Positions 1,846 through 60,931 are shown, numbered from the stretch's first letter. The stretch: 64,000 nt of DNA from Pseudomonadota bacterium (GCA_018241405.1 JAFEDY010000032.1:5725-69724), one strand, 5' to 3'. The notes: generated by a model not told the origin, from the letters alone. Numbers and translations: made by a program.

Positions 1846-1876
1846 AAAAAAAAGAGGCCCGGACGGGCCGGGCTGG
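1846..1876 (-). terminator. rho-independent terminator after the ligase-like gene
   Basis: Minus strand reads GCCCGG-cccgt-CCGGGC followed by a T8 run (the A-run at 1846-1853 on plus). Confidence 0.5.
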
Positions 1877-1990
1877 GAAAGCCCCGCGGCGATCAACGCT
1901 ACCGGGCCCCGCTCAGGGAGGTGAAGCGGGGGGCGGCGAACCGCCCGGGCGCAATCTAGCACTCGCAGGCGGCGCGCGCAAGTCGCGAGG

Positions 1991-3797
<1,807 letters not shown>

Positions 3798-3810
<13 letters not shown>

Positions 3811-5539: not shown

Positions 5540-6985
5540 ATGAACAACCCTCCCTCCTCCCCGCGCGCCCGGGCGCTGCCGGCCGCGCTGCTGCTGGCGC
5601 TGGCCCTGCTTGCGGGCTGCGCCGACATGGCGGGCATCGCACCCCAGGCGCGCATGCGCGACGCCACGGCACTGGGCCTGCCGGCCGGCACCGCGTTTGA
5701 AACACCCCAGGACTGGTGGCGCGGCTTTGGCGACGCGCAACTGGATGCGCTCGTGGACCAGGCCCTGGCCGGCAACCCGGGCCTGGCCCAGGCCGCCGCG
5801 CGCGTCGCCCGCGCCCAGGCCTTTGCCGAACAGGCCCACGCCGCCGAAGGACCGCGCCTGGACGCCGGCCTGGACGCCACGCGCCAGCGCTACAGCGCCA
5901 ACGGCCTGTACCCACCGGGCGTAGCCGGCGCCACCATGGGCGTGGAGACGGCGCGCCTCTCGGGCAGCTGGGAGCTGGACTTCTTCGGCAAGAACCGCGC
6001 CGCGCTGCAGGCCGCGCTGGGCCAGGCCGAGGCCGCGCGCGCCGACGCCCAGGCCGCGCGCCTGCTGCTGGCCAGCCGCGTGGCGCAGGGCTACTTCCAG
6101 CTCGCGCGCCTGCAGGCGCAGCAGGCCGTGGCCGAGCGCACCCTGGCCCAGCGCACCGAGCTGCTGCGCCTGGTGCAGCGCCGCCTGGGTGCGGGCCTGG
6201 ACACCCGGCTGGAGCTGCGCCAGAGCCAGGGCGCGCTGCCCGAGGCACGCCAGCAGATCGAGGCTCTGCGCGAACAGCAGGCCCTGGCGCGCAACGCCCT
6301 GGGCGCCCTTATTGCCGATCAAAAAACGGCTCAAGCGCTTACCCCAAAAGCGCTGGAAGCTATTGAACAAATAGCAATCCCGGCCCATATACCGGCCGAC
6401 CTGCTGGGCCGCCGGCCCGATGTGGCGGCGGCGCGCTGGCGCGTGCAGGCCGCGACACAGGACATGGCCGTGGCGCGCGCCCAGTTCTACCCCAACGTGA
6501 GCCTGACGGCCTTCGTCGGGCTGTCCAGCATCGTGCTGGACCGCTTCATCGACGCCGGCAGCCGCGAATGGGGCGCGGGCCCGGCGCTGCGCCTGCCGCT
6601 GTTCGACTCCGGCCGCCTGCGCGCCAACCTGCGCGGCAAAGCCGCGGACCTGGACGGCGCCGTCGAGAGCTACAACGCCGCCCTGCTCGAAGCCGTGCGC
6701 GACGCGGCCGACCAGCTCGCATCGGGCGCCTCGGTCGAGCGCCAGATCGCCGAGCAGCGCCAGGCCGGCGCCGCCGCCGAGGACGCCTACGCCATCGCCC
6801 AAAAGCGCTACGACGCCGGCCTGGCCAACTACCTGCAGGTGCTGGCGGCCGAGACCCAGGTGCTGGCCCAGCGCCGCCAGGCCGTGGACCTGGCCGCGCG
6901 CCGGCTCGACAGCCAGGTGGCGGTGATGCGCGCGCTCGGCGGCGGCTATGCCGCGCCGCTGCCCGTAGCCACCGCACGGCGTTGA
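5540..6985 (+). CDS. efflux outer-membrane factor lipoprotein (NodT/OprM family)
   Basis: 481 aa with lipobox LLAGC. Typical NodT repeats (PDVAAARWRVQAA, FYPNVSLTAFVG, AVESYNAALLEA). Confidence 0.9.
   Translation: MNNPPSSPRARALPAALLLALALLAGCADMAGIAPQARMRDATALGLPAGTAFETPQDWWRGFGDAQLDALVDQALAGNPGLAQAAARVARAQAFAEQAHAAEGPRLDAGLDATRQRYSANGLYPPGVAGATMGVETARLSGSWELDFFGKNRAALQAALGQAEAARADAQAARLLLASRVAQGYFQLARLQAQQAVAERTLAQRTELLRLVQRRLGAGLDTRLELRQSQGALPEARQQIEALREQQALARNALGALIADQKTAQALTPKALEAIEQIAIPAHIPADLLGRRPDVAAARWRVQAATQDMAVARAQFYPNVSLTAFVGLSSIVLDRFIDAGSREWGAGPALRLPLFDSGRLRANLRGKAADLDGAVESYNAALLEAVRDAADQLASGASVERQIAEQRQAGAAAEDAYAIAQKRYDAGLANYLQVLAAETQVLAQRRQAVDLAARRLDSQVAVMRALGGGYAAPLPVATARR
6310..6378 (-). 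repeat. repeat copy B, inside the outer-membrane factor ORF
   Basis: The reverse complement reads caATAGCTTCCAGCGCTTTTggggtAAGCGCTTGAGCCgttttttgatcgg. Confidence 0.7.
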
Positions 6986-8322: not shown

Positions 8323-9888
8323 ATGACCGCCCCCGCCACCCCACCCCCACCGCTGCCGCCGCTGTCCGGCAGCGCCCGCACCTGGGGCACGCTGGCCCTG
8401 TCGGCCGCCACCTTCATGAATGTGCTGGACACGTCGATCGCCAACGTGTCCCTGCCCGCCATCGCCGGCGACCTGGGCGTGAGCCCCACCCAGGGCACCT
8501 GGATCATCACCAGCTTTGCCGTGGCCAACGCCATTGCCGTGCCGCTCACGGGCTGGCTGTCGCAGCGCTTTGGCCAGGTGCGGCTGTTCATGGCCAGCGT
8601 CACGCTGTTCGTCATCGCCTCCTGGCTGTGCGGACTGGCCCCCAACATGCCGCTCTTGATCGCCGCGCGCACGCTGCAGGGCTTTGTCGCCGGGCCCATG
8701 ATTCCGCTGTCGCAGTCGCTGCTGCTGGCCAGCTACCCGCGCGCGCTCGCCGGCCTGGCCATGGCCATGTGGTCCATGACGACGCTGATCGCGCCGGTGA
8801 TGGGGCCGCTCTTGGGTGGCTGGATCACCGACAACATCAGCTGGCCCTGGATCTTCTACATCAACGTGCCGGTGGGCATTGCCTCGGTGCTGGCCACCTG
8901 GGCCATCTTTCACAAGCGCGAAACCGCGCGCCAAAGCCTGCCCATCGACGCCATCGGCCTGGCGCTGATGGTCATAGGCGTGGGCAGCCTGCAGGTGATG
9001 CTCGACATCGGCAAGGAGCATGACTGGTTCTCCTCGCCCCTGGTGACGGGCTGCGCCGTCGCCGCCGGCGTCGGCCTGCTGGCCTTCTGGCTCTGGGAGC
9101 GTGACGAGGCCCACCCGGTGGTGGATCTGAGCCTGTTCAAGATCCGCAATTTCTGGGCTGGCACGCTGGCCACGGCCGTGGGCTACGGGCTGTTCTTTGG
9201 CAACGTGGTGCTGCTGCCGCTGTGGCTGCAGCAGTTCATGGGCTACACCGCCACGCAGGCCGGCGAGATCATGGCGCCCGTGGGACTGCTGGCGATGATT
9301 CTCTCGCCCATCGTCGGCAAGAGCATCGGCCGCGTGGACCCGCGCCGCTACGCCACCTTCGCCTTCGTGGTGTTTGCGCTGGTGCTGTGGATGCGCTCGC
9401 TGTTCTCCACGCAGGCGGACTTCGTCACCATCATGATCCCGACCATCATCCAGGGCATCTCGATGGCGTTCTTCTTCATCCCGCTGGTCACGCTCACGCT
9501 GTCGGAGATTCCGCCGCACCGCGTGCCGGCGGCCTCGGGGCTGTCCAACTTCGTGCGCATCACCGCCGGCGCCATCGGCACCTCGGTGACGACGACGCTG
9601 TGGGAGAACCGCGCCAGCCTGCACCACGCCCAGCTGACCGAGCACCTCACGGCCGACAGCCCGGCGCTGGCGCACACCATGCAGACCCTGCAGGCCGCGG
9701 GCATGACGCCCGCGCAGGCGCTCGCGCAGATCGAGCGCATGACCAACCAGCAGGCCTACATGCTGGCCGCCAACGACATCTTCTGGGCCTCGGCCGTGCT
9801 GTTCATCGCGTTGATTCCACTCGTCTGGCTGGCGCACAAGCCCGCACCCGTGGCCGGCGCCGCCGATGCGGCCGCCGGGGCACATTGA
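8323..9888 (+). CDS. DHA2 (EmrB/QacA) family MFS drug efflux transporter, 14-TMS type
   Basis: 521 aa; FMNVLDTSIANVSLPAIAGDLG motif; follows the MFP gene. Confidence 0.9.
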   Translation: MTAPATPPPPLPPLSGSARTWGTLALSAATFMNVLDTSIANVSLPAIAGDLGVSPTQGTWIITSFAVANAIAVPLTGWLSQRFGQVRLFMASVTLFVIASWLCGLAPNMPLLIAARTLQGFVAGPMIPLSQSLLLASYPRALAGLAMAMWSMTTLIAPVMGPLLGGWITDNISWPWIFYINVPVGIASVLATWAIFHKRETARQSLPIDAIGLALMVIGVGSLQVMLDIGKEHDWFSSPLVTGCAVAAGVGLLAFWLWERDEAHPVVDLSLFKIRNFWAGTLATAVGYGLFFGNVVLLPLWLQQFMGYTATQAGEIMAPVGLLAMILSPIVGKSIGRVDPRRYATFAFVVFALVLWMRSLFSTQADFVTIMIPTIIQGISMAFFFIPLVTLTLSEIPPHRVPAASGLSNFVRITAGAIGTSVTTTLWENRASLHHAQLTEHLTADSPALAHTMQTLQAAGMTPAQALAQIERMTNQQAYMLAANDIFWASAVLFIALIPLVWLAHKPAPVAGAADAAAGAH

Positions 9889-9892
9889 TATG

Positions 9893-9945
9893 CTATCAAT
9901 AACTGAGCTGCCAGCGCTTTATTTGCAAGCGCCAGCAGCCAATCA
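9893..9945 (+). repeat. repeat copy C, between the convergent emrB-like and hydrolase genes
   Basis: ctatcaataacTGAGCTGCCAGCGCTTTATttgCAAGCGCCAGCAGCCaatc; the arms pair at 11 of 13 positions. Confidence 0.8.
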
Positions 9946-10629
9946 ACCTACATGCTGGGCCAGAAAGGCCAGCGTGCGCTCGCGCGCCAGCTGCGCCGCG
10001 GCGGCGTCAAAGCTGGCGCGTTGGTCGCAGTTGAAGCCATGGTCGGCGGCGTAGACCTCGACCTGTACCTCGGGGTGGGCCTGGGCGAAGGCCTGCACCT
10101 GCGGCATGGGAATCCAGTGGTCGCGCGCGCCGAAATGCGCCAGCACCGGCACGCGCGGCTGGCGCGCGCATTCGTGCACCGTGGTGATGCCGCCGCCGTA
10201 GTAGGGCACGGCGGCCGCTAGGTCCTCCAACATGCAGGCCGCGCGCCAGGCGAGCAGCCCGCCCCAGCAATAGCCCACCACGCCGACCTTGCCGTTGTGG
10301 CGCCTGGCGTAGGCTATGGCGGCCTGTATGTCGGGCAGCACGCCCGGCGCGGGCAGGGCCTCTGCGGCGGCCTTGAGGGCCTTGCCGGCCTCCATGTCAG
10401 GGGCGCCATAGCCCAGGTCCACATCGCGCTGCACGCGCGCGAAGGTCGATGGCGCAATCGCCAAATAGCCATGCCTGGCATACCAGTCGGCCACGGCGCG
10501 GATATGGCTGTTGACGCCGAAGATTTCCTGCAGCACCACCACCGCGCCGCGCGGCGCACCATCGGTACGCGCCAGCCAGGCAGAAAAGGTGAAGCCGTCG
10601 CCCGATGTCAGGTCTACCCACTGTCCCAT
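9943..10629 (-). CDS. dienelactone hydrolase family protein
   Basis: ORF 9943..10701; likely start MGQWVDLTSGDG. Contains VVVLQEIFGVN and the GYCWGG nucleophile elbow. Confidence 0.85.
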   Translation of the reverse strand: MGQWVDLTSGDGFTFSAWLARTDGAPRGAVVVLQEIFGVNSHIRAVADWYARHGYLAIAPSTFARVQRDVDLGYGAPDMEAGKALKAAAEALPAPGVLPDIQAAIAYARRHNGKVGVVGYCWGGLLAWRAACMLEDLAAAVPYYGGGITTVHECARQPRVPVLAHFGARDHWIPMPQVQAFAQAHPEVQVEVYAADHGFNCDQRASFDAAAAQLARERTLAFLAQHVG

Positions 10630-11397: not shown

Positions 11398-12078
11398 TCA
11401 GCGCCCCTGGCCCTGCACCCAGTCCGCCAGCTCGTCGGCCACCTGGGCGGCGGCCTCGGCCAGGGCCTTGGCGCCTCCGGCGGCGTCGGGCGTGGCGGCG
11501 CTGCGCTGGGCGATGAACACCTGCTGGGCCAGCGGCGTCTCGCCGGCATTGCTGGCGTCGGCCAGCAGGGCACGCACGCGCACCAGGCCGGCGCTGGCGT
11601 CGGGGGCGCTGAAGACCTGGCTGAATTCCTCGAGCTGCACGCGCAGCACGCTGGGCAGGCGCCCCTGGCCCCGTTGCGGCGCCATGCCTTCGATGCCCGC
11701 GAGCACGACGCGGCGCTGGCCCAGGCGCTCGCGCAGGGCCTGGGCCAGCAGGTCGGCGGGCGGCTGGCTCCAGCGCGCCAGGGTGTAGGGGCGCAGCTGC
11801 TGGGCGTTGGCATAGGCCAGGCGGTACAGCAGGGCGGAGCTGCCATCGGGCAGGCCCACGCTGTCCACCGCGGCCAGCGCAATGGGCGGCAGCGCCGCAG
11901 CCGGCGCGGCGCCCGCGGCGCGCACGGGGCCGGGGCCGAAGTCATACAACTCGGCACGCGCCGGCGGCGCGGGCAAGGCGGAGCAGCCGGTCAGGGCCAG
12001 CACTGCAATGACCAGGTAAAAAGCGCCTTTAGCGCCTGTCAATCCTGCGTCAGCAGCTATGTTTTTGGTAGTTTTCAT
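11398..12078 (-). CDS. ABC-type transport auxiliary lipoprotein (PqiC/DUF330-like), last gene of the Mla/MCE operon
   Basis: 226 aa with lipobox LALTGC; lies downstream of the mlaD-like gene. Its N-terminal 20 aa are encoded by repeat copy D. Confidence 0.7.
   Translation of the reverse strand: MKTTKNIAADAGLTGAKGAFYLVIAVLALTGCSALPAPPARAELYDFGPGPVRAAGAAPAAALPPIALAAVDSVGLPDGSSALLYRLAYANAQQLRPYTLARWSQPPADLLAQALRERLGQRRVVLAGIEGMAPQRGQGRLPSVLRVQLEEFSQVFSAPDASAGLVRVRALLADASNAGETPLAQQVFIAQRSAATPDAAGGAKALAEAAAQVADELADWVQGQGR
12011..12078 (-). repeat. repeat copy D, encoding the N-terminus of the Mla-operon lipoprotein
   Basis: The reverse complement reads atgaaaactaccaaaaacATAGCTGCTGACGCAGGATtgaCAGGCGCTAAAGGCGCtttttacctgg. 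Confidence 0.6.
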
Positions 12079-15091: not shown

Positions 15092-15156
15092 GAAAAAACA
15101 TCACAAAATGCGGCCCGACGCATGGGTAAAGCGTAAGCAGCCATCAAAACCATAGC
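15092..15156 (-). repeat. repeat copy X (with internal deletions), intergenic
   Basis: The plus strand has AAGCGTAAGCAGCCATCAAAAC, compared with copy F AAGCGCTGGCAGCTATCAAAAC (18 of 23). The upstream CGGCC...ACGC segment also aligns. Confidence 0.5.
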
Positions 15157-15267
15157 ATGCCGCGGATTCCCTCTCGACAGCGGGGCGCCGCTTTGCACAA
15201 TGACCCACAGCATCGATGCGCATGCCTACACGGCAGCGCTTTACTTTTCGACAGGCGATCGGCATCC

Positions 15268-25382: not shown

Positions 25383-26828
25383 ATGAGCGCGAAACTCATC
25401 CATGGCTACGAGGTCGTCATCGGCTTCGAAACCCACTCCCAGCTCGCGACCAAGAGCAAGATATTCAGCCGCGCCAGCACCGCCTTCGGCGCCGAGCCCA
25501 ACACCCAGGCCTGCGCCGTGGACCTGGCCCTGCCCGGCACCCTGCCGGTGATGAACCGCGAGGCCGTCGCCTGTGCTATCAAATTGGGACTGGCCCTCGG
25601 CTCCCACATTGCGCCACAGAGCATTTTTGCCCGCAAGAACTACTTCTACCCGGACCTGCCCAAGGGCTACCAGATCAGCCAGTTCGAGATCCCCGTGGTG
25701 CAGGGCGGCGAGGTCAGCTTCTACCTGGGCGAGGAGAAGAAGACCGTGCGCCTGGTGCGCGCCCACCTGGAGGAAGACGCCGGCAAGAGCCTGCACGAAG
25801 AATTCCACGGCATGAGCGGCATCGACCTGAACCGCGCCGGCACGCCGCTCTTGGAGATCGTGACCGAGCCCGACATGCGCTCCACCGACGAGGCCGTGGC
25901 CTACGCCAAGGCGCTGCACCAGATCGTCACCTGGATCGGCATCTGCGACGGCAACATGCAGGAAGGCAGTTTCCGCTGCGACGCCAATGTCTCGGTGCGC
26001 AAGCCCGGCGGGCCGCTGGGCACGCGCCGCGAGATCAAGAACCTCAACAGCTTCAAGAACATGCAGCAGGCGATCGACTACGAGATCCGCTGGCAGATCG
26101 AAGAAATCGAGGACGGCCGCGCCATTCAACAGGCCACCGTGCTGTTCAACCCCGACACGGGCGAGACGCGCGCCATGCGCACCAAGGAAGACGCGGCCGA
26201 CTACCGCTACTTCCCCGACCCCGACCTGCCGCCGCTGTGCATCGCCCAGGACTGGATAGAGCGCGTGCGCGCCGAGATGCCCGAGCTGCCGCGCGCCATG
26301 GCCGCGCGTTTTGTAACGCAATACGGCCTGCCCGAGTACGACGCCACCACGCTCACGCAAAGCCAGGCCATGGCGGCCTACTTCGAGGATGCGGCCAAGG
26401 CCTGCGGTCAACCCAAGCTGGCGTCCAACTGGGTCATGGGCGAGATTTCGCGGCGCCTGAACACCGAGGAAATCGGCATGGACGCCGTGAAGGTGAGCAG
26501 CGGCCAGCTGGCACAGCTCATCGCCCGCATCCAGGACGGGACGATTTCCAACAACGCCGCCAAGCAGGTATTCGAGGCGCTGTGGACAGGCGAGGGCTCT
26601 CAGGTGGATGCTGTCATCGAGGCCCGGGGCCTCAAGCAGATGAATGACACGGGCGCGCTGGAGGCCATCATCGACGAGGTCATCGCCGCCAACCCGGCCA
26701 ACGTGGAGCAGTTCAAGGCCGGCAAGGACAAGGCCTTCAACGCCCTCGTGGGCCAGGTCATGAAGGCCAGCCGCGGCAAGGCCAACCCGCAGCAGGTCAA
26801 CGAACTATTGAAGGCCAAACTGGCCTGA
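25383..26828 (+). CDS. gatB: Asp/Glu-tRNA(Asn/Gln) amidotransferase subunit B
   Basis: 481 aa; [19 protein letters not shown] and AHLEEDAGK motifs. Confidence 0.97.
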
Positions 26829-26865
26829 GCGCTTGCCAGCCAAGCGCTGGCAGCTATCAAAACAG
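26826..26865 (-). repeat. repeat copy F, starting on the gatB stop codon
   Basis: tgAGCGCTTGccagcCAAGCGCTGGCAGCTATCAAAAc, with a perfect 8-bp stem AGCGCTTG/CAAGCGCT. Confidence 0.8.
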
Positions 26866-27005
26866 GGGTTCAAGCCCTGGGGTGCCGCCGGGTGGCAATG
26901 GGCCAGAGCAGGGCCCTTGCGCGTTGAACATGGTGCCGCAGCCTCCCTGCACCATGGACAAAACCGGCGGGCGGCTCGCCCCATGGGCACCGCTACCGGT
27001 GCGTC

Positions 27006-27914
27006 TCAGCTGAGCACCACGCTGGACAGGCGCCGGCGGTAGGTCGCCACGACCGGGTCCTCGGGCGGGATCTGGCCCTCGGCCACCTTGACTCTGGGCG
27101 GCTCGATGATCTCCAGGATGGCCACAAAGGTCTTTCGTGCGGCCTCGCCGTTCCAGCTCTTGTCGCGCATCAGGATCTCCAGCAGTTCGTCCATGGCCTC
27201 CGGCCAGCGCTGGCGCGCCATGAGCCAGCGAGCGCGGTCGTAGCGCGCCTCGAAGTCGCGCTTGTTGGCGCCTATTTTTGCTGCAAACTGGGCATCAGCG
27301 CCTTCTCCATAAGCGCTAACAGCTACGAAATCAAGAGCATCCATCCAGGCCTTGAGCGCCCCCAGACGGCGCGAGGCATCGGCCTTGGAGATCACGGGGG
27401 CAAAGGCCACCTTGGCCGCGTCCTCGTGGCCAAGCTTCAGCAGCAGTTTCACGTAGTCAAAGCGCGCCTCGTCGTTGGCCGGGTCGGTGGCCACGGCCTG
27501 CTGCAGCGCTTCCAGCGCGGTCTCGGTGTCGCCGCCGGCCAGGGCATCCTGGGCCTGTTCCTCCTGCTCCTCGGCCTGCAGCGCCTCGGCGCTGGGCACA
27601 TGCTTGTCGAGGAAGGCGCGCAGCTGGCCCTCGGGCTGGGCGCCCATGAAGCCATCGACCGGCTGGCCGTTCATCATCAGCACGCAGGTGGGGATGCTGC
27701 GGATGCCGAACATGGCGGCCAGCTGCTGCTCCTGGTCGGAGTCGATCTTGGCGAGCTTGAAGCGGCCGGCGTATTCGACCTCCAGCTTCTCCAGCACCGG
27801 GCCCAGGCTCTTGCACGGGCCGCACCAGGGCGCCCAGAAGTCCACCAGCACAGGTGTGGTCATGGAGGCGGCAACCACCTCGGTCTCAAAGGTTTCTAGG
27901 GTGACGTCGATCAT
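27006..27914 (-). CDS. thioredoxin-domain plus TPR protein (YbbN/CnoX-like)
   Basis: Start MIDVTLETFETEVV; WAPWCGPCK active site, then a helical TPR-like C-terminal half. Repeat copy G lies inside it. Confidence 0.85.
   Translation of the reverse strand: MIDVTLETFETEVVAASMTTPVLVDFWAPWCGPCKSLGPVLEKLEVEYAGRFKLAKIDSDQEQQLAAMFGIRSIPTCVLMMNGQPVDGFMGAQPEGQLRAFLDKHVPSAEALQAEEQEEQAQDALAGGDTETALEALQQAVATDPANDEARFDYVKLLLKLGHEDAAKVAFAPVISKADASRRLGALKAWMDALDFVAVSAYGEGADAQFAAKIGANKRDFEARYDRARWLMARQRWPEAMDELLEILMRDKSWNGEAARKTFVAILEIIEPPRVKVAEGQIPPEDPVVATYRRRLSSVVLS
27272..27338 (-). repeat. repeat copy G, inside the thioredoxin-TPR ORF
   Basis: The reverse complement reads gatttcGTAGCTGTTAGCGCTTATggagAAGGCGCTGATGCCCagtttgcagcaaaaata. 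Confidence 0.7.
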
Positions 27915-28089: not shown

Positions 28090-28587
28090 ATGAACCCCAT
28101 TCAGATCGGCGTGGTCATGGGCTCCAGCAGCGACTGGGACACCATGCAGCACGCAGTTGCCATCCTTGCGCAGTTCGGCGTTGCGCACGAGGCGCAGGTG
28201 GTCTCGGCCCACCGCATGCCCGACGACATGTTCCGCTACGCCGAGGCCGCAGTCGGCCGGGGCCTCAAGGCCATCATCGCCGGCGCGGGCGGCGCCGCCC
28301 ACCTGCCCGGCATGATCGCCGCCAAGACCGTGGTGCCGGTGCTGGGCGTGCCCGTGGCCAGCCGCCATTTGCAGGGCGTGGATTCGCTGCACTCCATCGT
28401 GCAGATGCCCAAGGGCGTGCCCGTGGCGACCTTTGCCATCGGTGCGGCGGGGGCAGCCAATGCAGCGCTGTTTGCCGTGGCCCTGCTGGCCAATGAAGAC
28501 CCCGCGCTGCGCGCCAGGCTGGAGGCCTTCCGCGCCGAGCAGACGGCTGCCGCCCGCGCCATGACCTTGCCGCCGGCGGCCGCATGA
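28090..28587 (+). CDS. purE: N5-carboxyaminoimidazole ribonucleotide mutase
   Basis: 165 aa; VVMGSSSDW...SAHRMP...[10 protein letters not shown]. Confidence 0.95.
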
Positions 28588-29762
28588 ACGCGGACGTGAA
28601 CGCCAGCGACGTGATCCTGCCCGGCACCACGCTGGGCGTGCTGGGCGGCGGGCAGCTCGGGCGCATGTGGGTGCAGGAGGCCCAGGCCATGGGCTACTTC
28701 ACCGCGGTGCTGGATGCCGACCCCACCAGCCCCGCCGGCCTGGTGAGCCACCACCACATCCGCACCGGCTACGAAGACCCGCAGGGCCTGGCCAAGATGG
28801 CGCGGCTGTGCACGGCGGTGACCACCGAGTTCGAGAACGTGCCGGCCGCGGCGCTCGACCTGCTGGCCCAGAGCCTGCGCGTGTCGCCCGCCGGCAGCGC
28901 CGTGGCCATCGCCCAGGACCGCGCGGCGGAGAAGGCGCATTTCGTGCGCTGCGGCGTGCCCGTGGCGCCGCATGCGGTGATCGCGTCACCCGATGATCTG
29001 GCCGGCGTAGCGCCCGACCTGCTGCCCGGCATTTTGAAGACCGCGCGCATGGGCTACGACGGCAAGGGCCAGGTGCGCGTGGCCACGCCCGCCGAGCTGG
29101 CCAGCGCCTGGAATGAATTGGGCGGCGTGCCCTGCGTGCTGGAAAAAATGCTGCCGCTGGCGCATGAATGCTCGGTCATCGTGGCACGCGGGCGCGACGG
29201 CAGCACGGCCCACCTGCCCGTGCAGCGCAACCTGCACCGCGGCGGCATCCTGGCCGTGACCGAGGTGTATGAAGGAAATCTGCCTCCAGCGCTTATCAGT
29301 CAAGCGCTGGATGCTGCAAAAAGCGTAGCTGACGGCCTGCAGTACGTGGGCGTGCTGTGCGTGGAGTTCTTCGTACTGCAGGACGGATCGCTGGTGGTCA
29401 ACGAGATCGCCCCGCGCCCGCACAACAGCGGCCACTACAGCCAGGACGCCTGCGATGTTTCGCAGTTCGAGCTGCAGCTGCGCTGCATGACCGGCCTGCC
29501 CCTGGTGCAGCCGCGCCTGCACAGCCCCACCATCATGCTGAACCTGCTGGGCGACCTGTGGTTTGCACATGGCACGCAGGCGCGCACCCCGGCCTGGGAA
29601 CAGGTGCTGGCGCTGCCCGGCTGTCACCTGCACCTGTACGGCAAGCGCGACGCCAAACCCGGCCGCAAGATGGGCCACCTGAACGTGACCGGCGCCACGC
29701 CCGAGGCCGTGCGCGCCACGGCGCTGCAGGCCGCGGCCATCCTCGGCATCGCGCCGTTCTGA
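28584..29762 (+). CDS. purK: N5-carboxyaminoimidazole ribonucleotide synthase
   Basis: 392 aa ATP-grasp protein; ATGA overlap with purE. Repeat copy H lies inside it. Confidence 0.93.
29275..29332 (+). repeat. repeat copy H, inside the purK ORF
   Basis: gaaatCTGCCTCCAGCGCTTATcagtCAAGCGCTGGATGCTgcaaaaagcgtagc. Confidence 0.7.
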
Positions 29763-29773
29763 GCGGGGCGCGC

Positions 29774-30772
29774 ATGATCCTCGACGGACGCCTGGACGCC
29801 TCGGTACAGACCGCCGCGCAGGCCCTGGCACGCGGGGAGCTACTGGGCCTGCCGACCGAGACGGTCTACGGCCTGGCGGCCGACGCCGACAACGACGCCG
29901 CCGTGGCGCAGATCTTTGCCGCCAAGGGCCGGCCCGCCAACCACCCGCTGATCGTGCATGTGGCGGGCAGCAGCGCCATCACCCACTACGCCCGCGAAGT
30001 GCCGCTGTTTGCGCAGCAGCTGATAGACGCCTTCTGGCCCGGCCCGCTCACCGTCATCCTGCCGCGCCTGCCGCAGGCGGCGCGCGCCTCCACGGGCGGG
30101 CAGGACAGCGTGGGCCTGCGCTGCCCGGCCCACCCGGTGGCGCATTCCGTGCTGGCCGCCTGCCAGCAGCTGAACCCGCCCGTCTGGGGCGTGGCCGCGC
30201 CCAGCGCCAACCTGTTCGGCAAGGTCAGCCCCACCACGGCCCGGCATGTGGCCGAGGCCTTTGGCGACGCGCTGCTGGTGCTCGACGGCGGCGCCTGCGA
30301 CGTGGGCATCGAGTCCACCATCATCGACTGCACGCGCGGTGTGCCCGTGCTGCTGCGCCCCGGCGCCATATCGCGCGCGGACGTGCAGCGCGCCTGCGGG
30401 CTGGCGCCACTATCAAAAGAAGAGCTGCCAGCGCACACCCCACGCGCGTCAGGCACGCTTTTGGCGCATTACGCCCCCACGGCGCGCGTGCGCCTCATGG
30501 ACGCCAAACAGCTTCAGACCGGCCTGGACATGCTGGGCGCCGACGCCGCCCACATGGCCGTCTACGCGCGCGCGCCGCTGCGCTCGGCGTCCAGCAAAAT
30601 CATCCTGCGCCGCATGCCCGACGACGCCGCCGCCGCGGCGCAGCAGCTGTTTGCCGCGCTGCGCGGCTTCGACGATGCCGGCGTGAAGCTGATCTGGATC
30701 GAGGCCCCGCCCGACAGCCCCGACTGGGAAGGCGTGCGCGACCGCCTGCAGCGCGCGGCGGCCGCCGGCTGA
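29774..30772 (+). CDS. tsaC: L-threonylcarbamoyladenylate synthase (long Sua5/YwlC type)
   Basis: Start MILDGRLDAS inside ORF 29357..30772. Contains LGLPTETVYGLAADA, KGRPANHPLIVHV and a C-terminal Sua5 domain. Confidence 0.9.
   Translation: MILDGRLDASVQTAAQALARGELLGLPTETVYGLAADADNDAAVAQIFAAKGRPANHPLIVHVAGSSAITHYAREVPLFAQQLIDAFWPGPLTVILPRLPQAARASTGGQDSVGLRCPAHPVAHSVLAACQQLNPPVWGVAAPSANLFGKVSPTTARHVAEAFGDALLVLDGGACDVGIESTIIDCTRGVPVLLRPGAISRADVQRACGLAPLSKEELPAHTPRASGTLLAHYAPTARVRLMDAKQLQTGLDMLGADAAHMAVYARAPLRSASSKIILRRMPDDAAAAAQQLFAALRGFDDAGVKLIWIEAPPDSPDWEGVRDRLQRAAAAG
30411..30472 (+). repeat. repeat copy I, a decayed GC-enriched copy inside the tsaC ORF
   Basis: tatcaaaagaAGAGCTGCCAGCGCACACcccaCGCGCGTCAGGCACgcttttggcgcatta. 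It shares the 12-mer AGCTGCCAGCGC with copies C, F and K. Confidence 0.45.
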
Positions 30773-38942: not shown

Positions 38943-39002
38943 CGACGCCAGCGCGACGGGGCGGCCCTTGCGCGGCGTCTGCTCGCGGGAGGCGCGCCAG
39001 TT

Positions 39003-39058
39003 CTAGCCGAATTTGGCCATAGCGCATACTACACAAGCGCTAGAAGCTATTATTTCGA
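39003..39058 (-). repeat. repeat copy J, overlapping the mtnN stop codon
   Basis: The reverse complement reads cgaaaTAATAGCTTCTAGCGCTTGTgtagTATGCGCTATGGCCaaattcggc. Confidence 0.75.
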
Positions 39059-39817
39059 TAGCGTTTTCAGCAAGCCATGCACGATGCCGTCGGCGTAGCG
39101 GCTGGCGACATGGGTGACGAAATGGGGGAAGTCCACATGCGCGCTGTCGTCGGCGCGGTCGGAGATGGTGCGCACGGCGGCAAACGGCAGGCCATAGTCG
39201 TGGCAGACCTGGGCCACGGCCGCGCCCTCCATCTCCACGGCCAGCGCCGCATGGCCGGCCGCGGCCAGGGCCTGGCGCAGCGCGCCGGATTCGCCCGAGG
39301 TGGAGACGAAACGGTCGCCGCTGACGATCAGCCCCTGGTGCGCGCATGCCGCATGCCGATGGGCAACGCCGCCGTCTTTTGCATCAAAATGGCCTCCAAC
39401 GCCCGCCAAATAAGCGCTGGCAGCTTCAAACAGCATAGTAGACAAGCCTTGATCGCAGGGCATGCGAGCGCGTCCATAGCCGGGCAGCTCCCAACGCGGG
39501 AACAGGGGCGAGGCATCCATGTCGTGCTGCAGAAAGTCCTGCGCCACCACCACGTCGCCCACCTGCACGCCCTCGCCCAGGCCCCCGGCCACGCCCGTGA
39601 ACACCATGCGCGCCACTGCGAAGCGCGAGGCCAGCACCGTGGCCGTGGTGGCCGCCGCCACCTTGCCTATACCCGACAGCGCCAGCACCACGGGCTGCCC
39701 GTACAGCGCGCCGCGCCAGAAGCTGCGGCCCGCGTGCGCGATGCATTCGGGCCGGTGCAGCGCGTGCATGAGGCTGCCTTGCTCTTCGGGCAGGGCGCTG
39801 AGGATGGCGGTGATCAT
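39050..39817 (-). CDS. mtnN: 5-prime-methylthioadenosine/S-adenosylhomocysteine nucleosidase
   Basis: Start MITAILSALPEEQG inside ORF 39050..40516; contains GIGKVAAA, VEMEGAAVAQVC and RTISDRAD. Repeat copy K lies inside it, and copy J overlaps its stop codon. Confidence 0.85.
   Translation of the reverse strand: MITAILSALPEEQGSLMHALHRPECIAHAGRSFWRGALYGQPVVLALSGIGKVAAATTATVLASRFAVARMVFTGVAGGLGEGVQVGDVVVAQDFLQHDMDASPLFPRWELPGYGRARMPCDQGLSTMLFEAASAYLAGVGGHFDAKDGGVAHRHAACAHQGLIVSGDRFVSTSGESGALRQALAAAGHAALAVEMEGAAVAQVCHDYGLPFAAVRTISDRADDSAHVDFPHFVTHVASRYADGIVHGLLKTLSK
39376..39432 (-). repeat. repeat copy K, inside the mtnN ORF
   Basis: The reverse complement reads tttGAAGCTGCCAGCGCTTATttggCGGGCGTTGGAGGCCattttgatgcaaaag. 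Confidence 0.75.
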
Positions 39818-43075: not shown

Positions 43076-44677
43076 TTATTTGCGGAACATGGCCAGCATG
43101 CGGCGCGTGACGGCAAAGCCGCCGAACATATTCACGGCAGTCAGCACCAGGGCGGCAAAGGCCAGCCACAGGATGAGCCCATCCGGGCGCCCGGCAGCGC
43201 CGGCTTCTGGCGGCGCAATCTGTACCAGCGCCCCAATGGCGATGATGCTGGAGATGGCGTTGGTGACGCTCATGAGCGGCGTGTGCAACGCGGGCGTGAC
43301 GTTCCACACCACCATGTAGCCAATGAAGCAGGCCAGCACAAACACCGTGAAATGCCCCAGGAAGGCCACGGGCGCATAGGCGCCAACCGCCCAGAACAGC
43401 ACGGCCAGCACGGCAAAGACGATGGTGAGCGTCTTGCCGGACATGGGCGCGCCGGGGCCGTGGCTGGACTTCTTCTCGGCCACGGGCGCGGCGGCCGCCT
43501 TGGGCGCAGGGGCCGGCGGCGCCTTGAGCGGCGGTGCGGGCCAGGTGACGGCGCCCTCCTTGATCACGGTGAGGCCGCGAATGGCGTCGTCCTCCATGTT
43601 GACCACGGCCACGCCGTCCTTGGCCTTGCACAGCTCCTCGACCAGGCGCAGCAGGTTGGTGGCGTACAGCGTCGACGACTGCTTGGCCAGGCGCGAGGCG
43701 AGATCCGTGTAGCCAATGATGGTCACGCCGTGGCGCACCACGGCCTCGCCGGGCACGGTCAGCTCGCAGTTGCCGCCCTGCTCGGCGGCCATGTCCACGA
43801 TCACGCTGCCGGGCTTCATGCTCTGCACCATCGCGGCGGTGATGAGCTTCGGAGCCGGCTTGCCCGGAATCAGCGCGGTGGTGATGATGATGTCCACGTC
43901 CTTGGCCTGGTCAGCGTACATCTGGCGCTGCGCGGCCTGGAAGCCCTCGCTCATGACCTTGGCGTAGCCGCCGCCGCCCGAGCCCTCTTCCTCGTAGTCC
44001 ACCTTGACGAATTCGCCGCCCAGGGATTTGACCTGGTCGGCCACCTCGGCGCGCGTGTCGTTGGCACGCACGATGGCGCCCAGATTGGCCGCCGTGCCAA
44101 TGGCCGCCAGGCCCGCCACGCCCGCGCCGGCGATGAACACCTTGGCCGGCGGCACCTTGCCCGCCGCCGTGATCTGGCCGTTGAAATAGCGGCCGAAGGC
44201 ATTGGCTGCCTCGATCACGGCCCGGTAGCCTGAGACGCCCGCGGTGGAGGTCAGCGCATCCATCTTCTGCGCGCGCGAGAGCGTGCGCGGCAGGCAGTCG
44301 ATGGCCAGCACGGTGGCGCTCTTCGCGGCCAGCTGCTGCATGAGGTCGGGATTCTGGGCCGGCCAGACGAAGCCGATGAGCGCGCTGCCCTGGCGCATCA
44401 GCGCCACTTCACCCTCGCTGGGCGGGCGCACCTTGAGCACGATGTCGGATGCGGCCCACAGCGCCGCCGCGTCGGGCAGCACCTCGGCGCCGGCGGCGCG
44501 GTAGGCGTCATCGCTGCAGTTGGCGGCCTCACCGGCACCCGTTTCCACGGCCACCGCGAACCCGAGCTTGATGAGCTTTTGCACCACGTCGGGCACGGTG
44601 GCCACGCGCTTCTCGCCGGGGAAGGTTTCCCGGGGAACGCCTATGCGTTGCGCCTGCGGGCTGGGGTTGGTCTGCAT
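43076..44677 (-). CDS. pntA: NAD(P) transhydrogenase subunit alpha (fused dI plus membrane part)
   Basis: Start [26 protein letters not shown]; contains [13 protein letters not shown] and a C-terminal TM segment. Confidence 0.93.
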
Positions 44678-44729
44678 GAGGGTCTCCTTGAGTTTAGTGA
44701 TCGTTATGCCAAGCCGACGCTGCGGTTCG

Positions 44730-44894
44730 CTAGTGTCCTGAGTTGGAGGTTCGTTGAAAAACAAATCGGCCGAGATCGGTACCAGACAAGGCGCGAACCG
44801 CAGCCATCGCCGTAGCGATGGCGAGGATTCGCAACGCCGCTTGGCGCCGATATTCGGGTGATTTGTTCATCGAATTTTCAATTCAGGACACTAG
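44730..44894. repeat. 165-bp imperfect palindrome (ERIC/Correia/MITE-like), single copy in the window
   Basis: Symmetric about 44812. The outer arms are CTAGTGTCCTGAGTTGGAGGTTCG... versus the reverse complement CTAGTGTCCTGAATTGAAAATTCG.... The central hairpin is GCCATCGC-cgta-GCGATGGC. Confidence 0.65.
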
Positions 44895-56447: not shown

Positions 56448-57197
56448 CTACTGCACCGCGGCGGCATTGAGCGCCGCCAGCCGCTCGGGCGTGCCCACGT
56501 CCGTCCAGCGGCCCGGGTACAGCTCGGCCGTGACGCGGCCCGCGTCCATGGCGCGGCGCAAGAGCGGCGCCAGCGGCACGGCCAGGCCCTCGGGGTTGCC
56601 CGCGGGGATGTTGCACCAGGGCGCAGCGAACAACTCGGCGCGCAAGAGGGCGATGGTGCTGTAGGTGTAGCGCGGCCGGGGGTCGTCTGCGGGCAGGTTC
56701 AGGGCCAGGCCGTGATCGGACAGGCCGAAGTCGCCGCGCGGGTTGTGCGCCGGGTTCTGCACCAGCCACAGGTGGGCCAACGCGTCGCTGTTAGCAAAGC
56801 GCTGCGCCGCGGCGGGGTCGAACAGGAAGTCGGGCGCAAACACGTCGCCCGCGGCCAGCCAGAACATGGGCCCAAGCCGGGGCAGCGCACGCGCGATACC
56901 GCCGGCCGTCTCCAGCGCGCGGCCAAAGTCCACGCCCTCGTGAGAGTATGAAATTGATAGCTGCTTGCGCTTATCCAGCAATTGGTTAAGGCCAAAATAA
57001 CTTGAAATTTGCTCGCCCAGCCAGGCCGTGTTGATGACCACCTGCGCCACGCCGGCATCGGCCAGCGCCTGCAGGTGCCAGGCCAGCAGCGGCCGGCCCT
57101 GCACTTCGAGCAGGGGCTTGGGAACATGGTCGGTCAGGGGGCGCATGCGCTCGCCGCGGCCGGCGGCCAGCAGCAGGGCGGGGGGCTGTGTGTGCAT
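56448..57197 (-). CDS. sugar-1-phosphate nucleotidylyltransferase (MurU-like)
   Basis: Start MHTQPPALLLAAGRGERMRPLTDHVPKPLL inside the antisense giant ORF 56448..59303. Repeat copy L lies inside it. Confidence 0.72.
   Translation of the reverse strand: MHTQPPALLLAAGRGERMRPLTDHVPKPLLEVQGRPLLAWHLQALADAGVAQVVINTAWLGEQISSYFGLNQLLDKRKQLSISYSHEGVDFGRALETAGGIARALPRLGPMFWLAAGDVFAPDFLFDPAAAQRFANSDALAHLWLVQNPAHNPRGDFGLSDHGLALNLPADDPRPRYTYSTIALLRAELFAAPWCNIPAGNPEGLAVPLAPLLRRAMDAGRVTAELYPGRWTDVGTPERLAALNAAAVQ
56950..57010 (+). repeat. repeat copy L, inside the MurU-like ORF (read on the opposite strand)
   Basis: gaaattgATAGCTGCTTGCGCTTATccagCAATTGGTTAAGGCCaaaataacttgaaattt. It shares the identical 15-mer ATAGCTGCTTGCGCT with copy A. 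Confidence 0.8.
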
Positions 57198-60475: not shown

Positions 60476-60516
60476 CAACAAAAAAGGCCGCGGGCACATT
60501 GCCATGCCCGCGGCCC
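60476..60516 (-). terminator. rho-independent terminator for the HPF-family gene
   Basis: Minus strand reads GGCCGCGGGCA-(8 nt)-TGCCCGCGGCC followed by TTTTTTG. Confidence 0.7.
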
Positions 60517-60521
60517 TTATG

Positions 60522-60580
60522 CAGAAAAAATTGGCTCTAACGCCTATCCATCAAGCGCAACAAGCTACGAAAAAAATAGC
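60522..60580 (-). repeat. repeat copy M, in the 3-prime UTR of the HPF-family gene
   Basis: The reverse complement reads tttttttcGTAGCTTGTTGCGCTTGATggaTAGGCGTTAGAGCCaattttttctgc. Confidence 0.65.
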
Positions 60581-60586
60581 ATCAGC

Positions 60587-60931
60587 CTACTCGGCCGTTC
60601 GAATGCTCTCCCGCCCCTGGCGATCCTTGGCGCGTGTGATGTCGTCGCCCAGCGAGCGCACCAGCTTGTCCAGCGCACCGGCTACGGCTTCGGCCACCTT
60701 GGCGGCCTCGGCGGTCGCGGCCACGGGCTGGCGGCCCGCGGGGCGGGCCTCGATCACGCAGCGCTTGTCGGCCACACCGGACTTGCCGGCGTCCACGTCG
60801 GACAGAAACACCTCCACGCGCGTCACATGTTCGCGAAAGCGCGTCAGCTTGGTTGCAACCTCTTCCTGCGTCCATTGGATCAGCGACTCTCCGCCCTGGA
60901 TGTGGTCGTTGGTGTGCACCTGAACTTGCAT
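60587..60931 (-). CDS. HPF/RaiA-family ribosome-associated protein (short form)
   Basis: Start MQVQVHTNDHIQGGESL with AAGGAGG upstream, inside ORF 60587..61021. Confidence 0.72.
   Translation of the reverse strand: MQVQVHTNDHIQGGESLIQWTQEEVATKLTRFREHVTRVEVFLSDVDAGKSGVADKRCVIEARPAGRQPVAATAEAAKVAEAVAGALDKLVRSLGDDITRAKDRQGRESIRTAE

What the first reader, a model, noticed from the sequence alone, without database searches (positions are those of the whole stretch)
29275..29332. Repeat copy H sits in-frame inside purK
The purK segment TAT GAA GGA AAT CTG CCT CCA GCG CTT ATC AGT CAA GCG CTG GAT GCT GCA AAA AGC GTA encodes [20 protein letters not shown]. It is a conspicuously low-GC island and aligns base by base with copy A. 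For example, CCAGCGCTTATCAGTCAAGCGCTGGATGC in H aligns with CTTGCGCTCATACATCAAGCGCTGGAGGC in A. The essential purine gene stays open through it. Either a mobile repeat was inserted or converted in-frame, as with Rickettsia RPEs, or a DNA-level signal is being maintained inside coding sequence at the cost of codon usage.
Basis: partly seen in the sequence, partly recalled or inferred. Interest (0 to 1): 0.65.

Follow-up and report, generated by a model that had tools for sequence, protein, structure and literature searches.

The report
Conserved repeat copy inside purK
A 58-base stretch inside the purine-synthesis gene purK is a real, reverse-oriented copy of a hairpin-forming repeat found throughout the genomes of this bacterial family. 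It overwrote existing codons without lengthening the gene, and many genera have kept it at the DNA level even though it uses the genome's rarest codons.

Summary
Window 29271-29330 in purK (28584-29762, +) is a statistically clear member of an AT-rich, quasi-palindromic, roughly 60-70-nt repeat family, with 11 other copies in the window. The copy lies antisense to purK.

It is not an RPE-like insertion. The segment has the same length in 79 of 80 Comamonadaceae orthologues, and it aligns without gaps to PurK structures from Burkholderia and Bacillus.

The DNA likeness cannot be explained by the peptide: 0 of 5000 synonymous resamplings came close to the observed score. The likeness sits at the orthologous codons in about 25-30 of 80 genomes from many genera. 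There GC3 is about 0.34, against 0.85 in the rest of the gene. Other lineages encode the same peptide with GC-rich codons.

Retention of the patch goes together with presence of the repeat family nearby. The Comamonadaceae-specific residues (YEGNLPP, KS) are the ones the element encodes.

Best reading: an ancient replacement that did not change length, followed by selection at the nucleotide level. This is a REP-like element held inside an essential gene. Its molecular role is inferred, not shown.

The parts
28584..29762 (+). purK (N5-carboxyaminoimidazole ribonucleotide synthase), 392 aa. It overlaps the end of purE by 4 nt.
   Evidence: ORF. Pfam domains RS_preATP-grasp, ATP-grasp (residues 119-295) and PurK_C. 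PDB match to 4izo at E=1e-141.
29271..29330 (-). Repeat copy 'H'. It is antisense and in frame, and covers PurK codons about 230-249 ([20 protein letters not shown]).
   Evidence: nhmmer hit on the minus strand at 29273-29330, E=2e-7. Weight-matrix score 40.4 bits at 29272-29330. 37/59 identical to the family consensus.
29285..29311 (.). Perfect palindrome at the centre of the copy: 10-bp arms TCCAGCGCTT / AAGCGCTGGA with the 7-nt loop ATCAGTC.
   Evidence: Sequence. Fold; on the minus strand the 81-nt fold has z=-2.81.
3740..3808 (+). Family copy 'A'. It covers the hemB stop codon and the gap before the next gene.
   Evidence: 61.2 bits.
6306..6381 (-). Family copy inside an outer-membrane efflux (OEP) gene. 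It is antisense, in the same reading frame as in purK, and lies in the linker between the two OEP repeats.
9886..9959 (-). Family copy between two convergent genes. It is nearly symmetric and scores on both strands.
12002..12076 (-). Family copy in sense orientation that encodes the N-terminus of a lipoprotein (MKTTKNIAADAGLTGAKGAFYL...).
15092..15161 (-). Weaker family copy containing an indel.
   Evidence: 28.2 bits.
26802..26870 (-). Family copy covering the last 8 codons and the stop codon of gatB, in a convergent gap.
27268..27343 (-). Family copy in sense orientation inside the thioredoxin-TPR gene (YbbN/CnoX-like), in the linker between the TPR blocks.
30408..30466 (+). Probable decayed copy in the linker of sua5/tsaC (LSKEELP...).
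   Evidence: Weight-matrix score 12.8 bits, the best site in the window outside the recognised copies. Weak copies lie about 700 nt downstream of purK in L012 and L018, the same offset as in the window.
38994..39066 (-). Family copy, intergenic.
39377..39428 (-). Family copy, intergenic.
56941..57012 (+). Family copy, intergenic.
60510..60587 (-). Family copy between two convergent genes.

Best explanation
SHOWN. Window 29271-29330 is a true member of a roughly 60-70-nt, AT-rich, quasi-palindromic repeat family that is widespread in Comamonadaceae. The family consensus is TTGCTATTAAATTGATAGCTGCTAGCGCTT-N7-AAGCGCTAGAGGCCAATTTGACTTAAA. The family is mostly extragenic and sits close against stop codons. 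The purK copy lies antisense and in frame. It occupies the codons of a predicted amphipathic helix in the ATP-grasp domain and adds no residues. The same element-like DNA sits at the orthologous codons in many genera, and it is decayed to GC-rich synonymous codons in others.

INFERRED, history. In an early Comamonadaceae ancestor the element overwrote a stretch that already encoded an alanine-rich helix and so was partly compatible with it. The likely route is an ectopic, templated replacement (gene conversion or template switching at microhomologies), with only length-neutral outcomes surviving in an essential enzyme. This imprinted about 8-10 residues (YEGNLPP, KS). The copy was then inherited vertically.

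INFERRED, mechanism today. In genomes that still carry the family, nucleotide-level purifying selection holds the copy in place. I infer that the element is a sequence-specific DNA (or hairpin) recognition site for a trans-acting factor associated with the family, working like a REP element. Where that system is lost, the patch drifts to GC-rich codons while the protein keeps the imprinted peptide.

My confidence is about 0.85 for the descriptive and historical part and about 0.35 for the specific 'protein-recognised site under selection' mechanism.
For: Family membership and orientation. The likeness is not due to the peptide: (0 of 5000).

No indel.

Orthologous retention. The independent weight matrix gives at least 20 bits at the purK patch in 25 of 80 loci (up to 58.5 bits in Simplicispira, 55.1 in Giesbergeria). 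The distribution is bimodal, with 45 loci below -20 bits.

Codon evidence. GC3 is 0.34 in the patch and 0.85 outside it, with invariant rare codons. The window's AT-ending codons are retained at 0.79 inside the patch and 0.35 outside among patch-bearing genomes, and at 0.33 and 0.32 in the others. Outside the patch, codon identity is only 0.06-0.12 above what codon usage alone predicts. Inside the patch, 7-13 of 11-16 codons match the window, against 2.4-5 expected.

Phylogeny. Patch-bearing lineages are scattered over the PurK tree and have patch-free sister lineages, which points to an old origin and repeated decay.

Co-occurrence with other family copies in the 8-kb flanks: 12/30 against 3/50, Fisher p=2.8e-4; 54% against 7% with the other profile.

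Imprint on the peptide. The score attainable by synonymous codon choice is 54-59 bits for Comamonadaceae peptides, including patch-free ones. It is 5-22 bits for outgroups and Burkholderia, -60 for Bacillus, and -55 +/- 19 across the proteome.

Sequence rather than structure is conserved: pairing in the arms equals the expectation for independent columns.

The unit is the whole element, not a short core: AAGCGCT occurs 16 times outside full copies, against 11 +/- 3.5 expected.

Other length-compatible intragenic copies lie in linkers of the efflux gene, the thioredoxin-TPR gene, sua5 and a lipoprotein gene.
Against: No trans-acting factor was identified. No RAYT-like ORF was seen between closely spaced copies.

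The co-occurrence statistics are not corrected for phylogeny and rest on only 8 kb of flank per genome. Several Hylemonella loci that carry the patch have no other copy in their flanks.

The codon statistics for the patch-bearing group are partly circular, because the group was chosen by similarity to the motif.

The central hairpin is broken in many patch-bearing orthologues (Val242, GCC236), so what exactly is being conserved is unclear.

A one-step replacement that preserves length is postulated, not observed.

The family's position next to stop codons and its 2:1 orientation bias would fit an RNA-level role just as well.
Confidence: 0.6

Rival explanations
1. Molecular drive without function. 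The purK patch is repeatedly re-homogenised by ectopic gene conversion, or by quasi-palindrome template switching, from the many other copies in the same genome. This counteracts GC pressure, and it stops when the family dies out.
For: Patch retention goes together with family presence. The family evolves as a consensus plus uncompensated decay, as expected for copied sequences. The sister taxa L054 and L072 differ by a complementary pair of changes in the two arms (CCA/CTG against CTA/CTA), one of which is nonsynonymous. That is what template switching within a palindrome would produce.
Against: Copies are only about 55-75% identical over 59 nt, which is poor substrate for RecA-type conversion. 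The purK copies share purK-specific states across genera (GCAGCTGC instead of ATAGCTGC, GGCA.ATTTCCTTCATA instead of GGCCAATTTGACT). They therefore behave as one orthologous, vertically inherited lineage and are not reset to each genome's consensus.
Confidence: 0.2
2. A local, purK-specific function. The AT-rich patch is kept as a cluster of rare codons that pauses translation between folding units of the ATP-grasp domain, or as an mRNA or antisense-RNA structure. Its likeness to the repeat is only a historical leftover.
For: It has by far the lowest GC3 in the gene. It sits at a strand-helix-strand boundary in a low-confidence model. The minus-strand fold has z=-2.81.
Against: Specific nucleotides, not merely rare codons, are invariant (GCT244 in 25/25, never GCA; AAT232 in 25/25). 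Many lineages with the same peptide have lost the cluster without any visible change to the gene. Outgroups show no such cluster. Retention tracks the repeat family. No promoter-like or terminator-like site was found at the patch. The hairpin is broken in many orthologues that retain the patch.
Confidence: 0.1
3. An RPE-like mobile insertion: the palindromic element was inserted in frame and added a new peptide segment to PurK.
For: A palindromic repeat lies inside an open reading frame. Several other copies in the window are also intragenic.
Against: The segment is 32 residues long in 79 of 80 orthologues, including those with no DNA similarity. It aligns without gaps to Burkholderia PurK and, across the patch, to Bacillus PurK.
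Confidence: 0.02
4. purK is the progenitor: the repeat family arose from an antisense fragment of this purK segment that became mobilised.
For: Half of the peptide is ancestral, so part of the sequence predates Comamonadaceae.
Against: This would leave the AT-richness of the purK patch and its conservation unexplained. The Comamonadaceae-specific residues moved toward the element, not the reverse. Intergenic copies carry features absent from purK: the GCTAT-N7-ATAGC dyad and the GGCCAATTTGACTTAAA tail.
Confidence: 0.03
5. Chance or peptide-driven resemblance: an alanine-rich helix (GCN GCN ...) happens to look like AGCTGCTAGCGCT.
For: Outgroup peptides are already in the top 0.01-0.5% of proteome sites for compatibility with the element.
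Against: 0 of 5000 peptide-preserving resamplings exceeded 10.1 bits, against 26.4 observed. The weight-matrix score of 40.4 bits lies within the range of true copies, while the background is 12.8 or less.
Confidence: 0.01

Closest known systems
REP / BIME / REPIN elements (enterobacteria, Pseudomonas) and their RAYT transposases
   Same: Short imperfect palindromes in high copy number (here about 2 per 10 kb). They are mostly extragenic, sit close to stop codons, often fill whole gaps between cistrons, are depleted between divergent genes, and occur in both orientations.
   Different: This family is AT-rich in genomes of about 65-70% GC. Its consensus is shared across many genera. Some copies are intragenic, in frame, length-neutral and conserved at orthologous codons. 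No RAYT gene was found or properly tested for.
Rickettsia palindromic elements (RPE)
   Same: A palindromic repeat lies inside protein-coding genes with the reading frame kept open.
   Different: By established knowledge, RPEs are insertions that add tens of residues. Here no residue is added.
DNA uptake sequences (Neisseria DUS, Pasteurellaceae USS)
   Same: A DNA-level motif kept inside coding sequence without indels, at a cost in codons and amino acids. It is conserved at orthologous sites, and extragenic copies form inverted pairs just after genes.
   Different: Those motifs are 9-12 nt long and strongly over-represented on their own. Here the unit is the whole element of about 60 nt, and the 7-mer core is not enriched outside full copies (16 against 11 expected). 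No link to competence is known or testable here.
BRE, the Beta-proteobacterial repeat element (Hot et al. 2011, PMC3110155)
   Same: A repeat reported in Comamonadaceae genomes, with some copies lying entirely inside coding sequences.
   Different: BRE is GC-rich (69%), 75-91 bp long, often tandem, and a variable-number tandem repeat (VNTR). This family is AT-rich, about 60-70 nt long and dispersed.
Position-specific conserved rare-codon clusters
   Same: A conserved run of rare codons at one place in an enzyme.
   Different: Here specific nucleotides are conserved, the sequence matches a genome-wide repeat, and retention tracks that repeat.

Membership tests
AT-rich quasi-palindromic repeat family of this window / Comamonadaceae | Profile match over at least 50 nt to copies other than the purK one | tested here: met
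   nhmmer E=2e-7, 26.4 bits, model positions 8-65. The independent metagenome weight matrix gives 40.4 bits, the 5th best site in the window.
AT-rich quasi-palindromic repeat family of this window / Comamonadaceae | Central palindrome AGCGCTT-N7-AAGCGCT | tested here: met
   TCCAGCGCTT-ATCAGTC-AAGCGCTGGA at 29285-29311.
AT-rich quasi-palindromic repeat family of this window / Comamonadaceae | 5' small dyad GCTAT-N7-ATAGC | tested here: inconclusive
   The purK copy reads GCTAC-GCTTTTT-GCAGC, so only part of the dyad is present. Orthologues read GCTAT-CGATTTC-GCAGC.
AT-rich quasi-palindromic repeat family of this window / Comamonadaceae | Extragenic position next to a stop codon | tested here: not met
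   The copy lies in the middle of purK (codons 230-249). About 90% of family copies are extragenic.
REP/REPIN-RAYT systems | Imperfect palindromic repeat, many copies, mainly extragenic and at 3' ends of genes | tested here: met
   182 copies in 878 kb. Contexts are convergent 29, tandem 60 and divergent 7, against 21.8, 55.4 and 18.8 expected. 40 of 60 tandem copies lie within 40 nt of the upstream stop codon.
REP/REPIN-RAYT systems | Cognate RAYT (Y1 transposase) gene flanked by the repeats | tested here: inconclusive
   I listed the longest ORF for each of 18 closely spaced copy pairs and read them by eye. They looked like ordinary genes or spurious ORFs, and none was scanned against a family library. 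No whole genome was available.
REP/REPIN-RAYT systems | Conserved 5' GTAG-type tetranucleotide | tested here: inconclusive
   (A/G)TAGC is nearly invariant at columns 21-25, but those columns were partly fixed by the search pattern.
Rickettsia-type RPE in-frame insertions | Extra residues compared with orthologues that lack the repeat | tested here: not met
   79 of 80 orthologues have a 32-residue segment. Alignments to 4izo, 4e4t, 10bm and 3q2o have no gap in the patch.
DNA uptake sequences (DUS/USS) | Short core motif strongly over-represented on its own, including in coding DNA | tested here: not met
   AAGCGCT has 28 matches, 12 of them inside full copies. The other 16 compare with 11 +/- 3.5 expected.
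DNA uptake sequences (DUS/USS) | Preferential uptake by competent cells | not testable with these tools
   This needs a transformation or uptake assay.
BRE (Hot et al. 2011) | GC-rich unit of 75-91 bp, often tandem | tested here: not met
   The paper gives 69% GC and tandem arrays. The copies here have about 50% GC and are dispersed.
Intrinsic terminator | GC-rich hairpin directly followed by a T-run | tested here: not met
   No terminator-like site on either strand at the patch. The family tail is typically only ATTT.
Rfam RNA families | Covariance-model match | tested here: not met
   No match on any copy at the gathering threshold or at E<=1.
PurK (N5-CAIR synthase, ATP-grasp) | Domain architecture and similarity to solved PurK structures | tested here: met
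   Pfam RS_preATP-grasp + ATP-grasp + PurK_C. 4izo at E=1e-141.

The most novel reading that the evidence does not exclude
Comamonadaceae may carry a genome-wide cis-element system that has not been described. The host would need this element locally, at the DNA level. Where genes are packed without intergenic space (ybbN-purE-purK-sua5), copies would have been written into coding sequence without changing its length. They would then have been kept there across the diversification of many genera, overriding codon usage and even dictating 8-10 residues of an essential enzyme. A family-specific protein that binds the element (a nucleoid or topology factor, or a domesticated transposase) would be the missing partner.
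Probability: 0.3. Interest if true: 0.8.

Novelty: new variant of a known kind. Interest (0 to 1): 0.6.

Why it matters
What REP-like repeats do for their hosts is a long-standing open question, because extragenic copies are hard to separate from neutral junk.

Here one copy sits inside an essential enzyme gene, where the protein and DNA requirements can be pulled apart. The peptide can be kept while the element is destroyed by synonymous recoding. Nature has already run that experiment in dozens of lineages: the patch decays where the family is absent. This gives a clean, testable handle on whether such elements are under selection in their own right.

The result also shows that a repeat can shape the amino-acid sequence of a housekeeping enzyme without any insertion or deletion. 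Finally, it warns that low-GC islands in GC-rich genes are not necessarily foreign DNA.

Tried and rejected
- **Rfam.** No family matched any copy at the gathering threshold or at E<=1.
- **tRNA origin.** ARAGORN found no tRNA in the window, so I could not test a recalled resemblance to tRNA-Ala and I dropped it.
- **Promoter and terminator scans.** Nothing was found at the patch.
- **Public sequencing runs.** The organism occurs in activated-sludge metagenomes, and DNA contigs confirm the sequence across the patch. The RNA data are unstranded community contigs and say nothing about transcripts or their ends.
- **Structure prediction.** Single-sequence AlphaFold gave a poor model (pLDDT 38). 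Only its secondary-structure call (helix 235-252 between strands) is usable, and only as a weak hint. I did not run a fold search on it.
- **Literature.** Four keyword searches and one search on the literal consensus sequences found no description of this family. BRE is a different element.
- **Plasmid collection.** Only 4 of 72,556 records carry the element. All are Comamonadaceae, and none is annotated at the match.
- **Covariation in the arms.** None was found; pairing equals the expectation for independent columns.
- **DUS-like short-core enrichment.** None.
- **RAYT hunt.** The ORFs between 18 closely spaced copy pairs, read by eye, looked like ordinary genes or spurious ORFs.
- **Re-conversion of the core in the window's lineage.** I considered whether the window had regained Leu237/CTT while core Comamonas has Gln. 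I rejected this because the window branches outside core Comamonas, next to L045, so Leu is ancestral.
- **Iterated profile.** It became dominated by purK copies, so I did not use it for any statistic.

Full report
**What is there.** The window is a GC-rich (about 68%) Comamonas-like chromosome segment. The best PurK match is 83% amino-acid identity to Comamonas sp. NTP6, and the same DNA occurs in activated-sludge metagenomes. purK is the ORF at 28584-29762 (+), 392 aa, with the expected Pfam domains and an E=1e-141 match to Burkholderia PurK structures. It is the lowest-GC part of the gene. The 60 nt have GC 0.52 against 0.70 for the gene. GC3 is 0.35 over codons 229-251 against 0.93 for the other 369 codons, and no other 23-codon stretch falls below 0.74.

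**The repeat family is real, and the purK segment belongs to it, in reverse.**
- Copy A is at 3765-3793. Core motifs occur 12 times, against 2.4-2.8 expected.
- A profile built from ten window copies, without the purK one, finds the purK segment on the minus strand at 29273-29330 with E=2e-7 (26.4 bits). The plus strand reaches only 12.3 bits, over the palindromic core alone.
- I then built a second, independent model. It is an ungapped 59-nt weight matrix made from 150 copies fetched from metagenomes with a pattern that purK copies do not contain. In the window this matrix separates 11 sites (33.7-61.2 bits) from everything else (12.8 bits or less). purK scores 40.4 bits, fifth best.
- Against copy A alone, both orientations give 32/59 identities.
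- The centre of the purK copy is a perfect hairpin with 10-bp arms and a 7-nt loop at 29285-29311.
- The peptide does not cause the likeness. In 5000 resamplings that kept the peptide and drew codons from the window's usage, the best score was 10.1 bits.

**It is not an insertion.** I fetched 80 purK loci from one genome per species. The 32-residue segment TEV...YVGV has the same length in 79 of them, including those whose DNA has no similarity to the repeat. It aligns without a gap to solved PurK structures from Burkholderia and, across the patch, from Bacillus anthracis. The C-terminal half of the peptide (A..AAK.[IV]AD.L) is recognisable in both. A low-confidence model places a helix at 235-252 between two strands, and the hydrophobic periodicity of the peptide agrees with that.

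**The DNA likeness is old and is held in place.**
- With the independent matrix, the orthologous codons score at least 20 bits in 25 of 80 loci. The highest are 58.5 (Simplicispira hankyongi), 55.1 (a Giesbergeria MAG), 52.1 and 50.2. Another 45 loci score below -20, so the distribution is bimodal.
- Patch-bearing lineages lie in many branches of a PurK tree built without the patch: relatives of Comamonas, Acidovorax, Giesbergeria, Simplicispira, Hylemonella, Rhodoferax and Polaromonas. Several have patch-free sister lineages. That pattern fits one old origin followed by repeated decay. The tree is a crude neighbour-joining tree.
- In patch-bearing sequences, GC3 is 0.34 in the patch and 0.85 outside it. 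Particular rare codons are fixed: AAT232 and GCT244 in 25/25, CTT237 in 21/25, AAA246 in 20/25, ATA or GTA248 in 25/25.
- Because that group was chosen by similarity to the motif, I added less circular measures. Outside the patch, same-amino-acid codon identity to the window is only 0.06-0.12 above what codon usage alone predicts. Inside the patch, 7-13 of 11-16 codons equal the window's rare codon, against 2.4-5 expected.
- The window's AT-ending codons are retained at 0.79 inside the patch and 0.35 outside among patch-bearing genomes, and at 0.33 and 0.32 in patch-free genomes.
- Neutral persistence is therefore excluded for the lineages that keep the patch.

**Retention goes with the family.** Other copies of the repeat occur in the 8-kb flanks of 12 of 30 loci with a patch score of at least 10 bits, but of only 3 of 50 others (Fisher p=2.8e-4). 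With the other profile the figures are 54% and 7%. This is not corrected for phylogeny, and the flanks are short. Some Hylemonella loci keep the patch with no other copy in view.

**The element left an imprint on the protein.** For any peptide I computed the best matrix score attainable by choosing among synonymous codons.
- Across 86,280 site, frame and orientation combinations in the window's proteins, the mean is -55 (sd 19). The four intragenic copies stand alone at 45-56 bits.
- Comamonadaceae PurK peptides reach 54-59 bits even where the DNA has fully decayed (L013).
- Outgroups reach 5-14 bits, Burkholderia -5 to 22, and Bacillus -60.
- The ancestral alanine-rich helix was thus already unusually compatible with the element (top 0.01-0.5% of sites). 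The family-specific residues, YEGNLPP in place of PAPxxS[DE] and KS in place of AR, are the ones the element encodes.
The mechanism (templated replacement at microhomologies, filtered by selection for length-neutral outcomes) is my inference.

**What kind of element it is.**
- The family consensus is a pair of roughly 16-nt imperfect inverted arms around a variable 7-nt loop, preceded by a small dyad GCTAT-N7-ATAGC and followed by an ATTT-rich tail. About a fifth of copies have a fully symmetric right arm.
- In 878 kb of metagenomic contigs there are 182 copies, about 2 per 10 kb. Only about 8% lie inside long ORFs.
- Extragenic copies are enriched between convergent genes and depleted between divergent genes (29, 60 and 7, against 21.8, 55.4 and 18.8 expected). 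In tandem contexts they sit right at the upstream stop codon, often filling the whole gap between cistrons. They show a 40:20 preference for the orientation of the upstream gene.
- Departures from the consensus are not compensated across the arms. What is conserved is therefore sequence, as for a copied element or a protein recognition site, and not an RNA fold.
- The 7-mer core is not enriched outside full elements, which argues against an uptake-sequence-like short motif.
- No Rfam family, paper or annotation describes the element. The BRE repeat of Hot et al. is GC-rich and tandem, so it is a different element.
- In behaviour the family is closest to REP/REPIN elements. Membership of a RAYT-associated system could not be tested.

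**How it most likely works.** It is shown that the purK copy is a family member, that it is orthologous across genera, that it adds no length, and that it is constrained at synonymous sites. It is inferred that the constraint exists because the element is recognised as DNA, or as an extruded hairpin, by a factor that goes with the family, so that losing the system releases the patch to drift. Three rivals remain:
- continued conversion from paralogues, acting as a drive (0.2);
- a purK-specific translational or RNA role (0.1);
- an origin of the family from purK itself (0.03).

Against the translational rival, specific nucleotides rather than merely rare codons are fixed, and retention tracks the family. 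Against ongoing conversion, purK copies share purK-specific states across genera.

**Verdict.** The insertion reading is refuted. The 'conversion plus DNA-level signal' reading is supported. This is a new variant of a known kind: a REP-like repeat with length-neutral, in-frame, deeply conserved intragenic copies. It offers a clean experimental handle, synonymous recoding, on whether such repeats are selected in their own right.

Noticed in passing
window 27268-27343 (-): A full repeat copy lies in sense orientation inside the thioredoxin-TPR (YbbN/CnoX-like) gene, in the linker between the TPR blocks. The same copy is present at the orthologous place in L024, L027, L032, L057 and L078. The peptide there (FVAVSAYGEGADAQF) replaces the FV.TDPRGQWPLEQF motif of most Comamonadaceae at equal length. 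Closer relatives that lack the element have gaps of 1-7 residues in this loop.
   Followed up: partly
window 6306-6381 (-): A repeat copy lies antisense inside an outer-membrane efflux (OEP) gene, between its two OEP repeats. It is read in the same frame as in purK (..A L xx [QK] A L [DE] A ... [IV] A) and encodes LIADQKTAQALTPKALEAIEQIAIP. I did not test it for an indel against orthologues.
   Followed up: partly
window 12002-12076 (-): A repeat copy supplies the start codon and N-terminal region of a lipoprotein of the ABC_trans_aux family (MKTTKNIAADAGLTGAKGAFYL, followed by the LTGC lipobox).
   Followed up: partly
window 30408-30466 (+); L012 5867-5915; L018 5854-5901: A probable decayed copy lies in the linker between the YrdC and Sua5_C domains of sua5/tsaC (LSKEELP). 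Weak copies lie about 700 nt downstream of purK in two Rhodoferax-group genomes, the same offset as in the window. Together these make three intragenic copies in the tightly packed ybbN-purE-purK-sua5 stretch.
   Followed up: partly
window 1848-1932 (-): A match to Rfam RF02837 (anti-hemB, Burkholderia RNA 7) at 47.4 bits and E=6e-8, just under the gathering score of 49.5. It lies about 700 nt upstream of hemB (2643-3758, +).
   Followed up: no
window 3740-3808 and 26802-26870: Extragenic copies overlap gene ends. One contains the hemB stop codon (LLKK**). The other encodes the last 8 codons of gatB (NELLKAKLA*). In the metagenomic sample, many copies fill the entire gap between two cistrons.
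   Followed up: partly
L091 1798-1836; L131 278-316; L155 165-203: These are fully symmetric variants of the element: the exact 16-mer ATAGCTGCTAGCGCTT and its reverse complement separated by 7 nt.
   Followed up: no
window 27006-27911 compared with L001-L009 and L024-L078: The window's YbbN-like protein is 82-83% identical to those of the Acidovorax clade but only 56-59% identical to those of Comamonas species. Its PurK, by contrast, is closest to Comamonas (77-83%). This points to two divergent ybbN types, or to exchange of this gene.
   Followed up: no
window 44723-44761 / 44863-44901: An unrelated inverted repeat with 39-nt arms, 82% complementary and 101 nt apart, lies around the inferred start end of the minus-strand ORF 43076-44866.
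   Followed up: no
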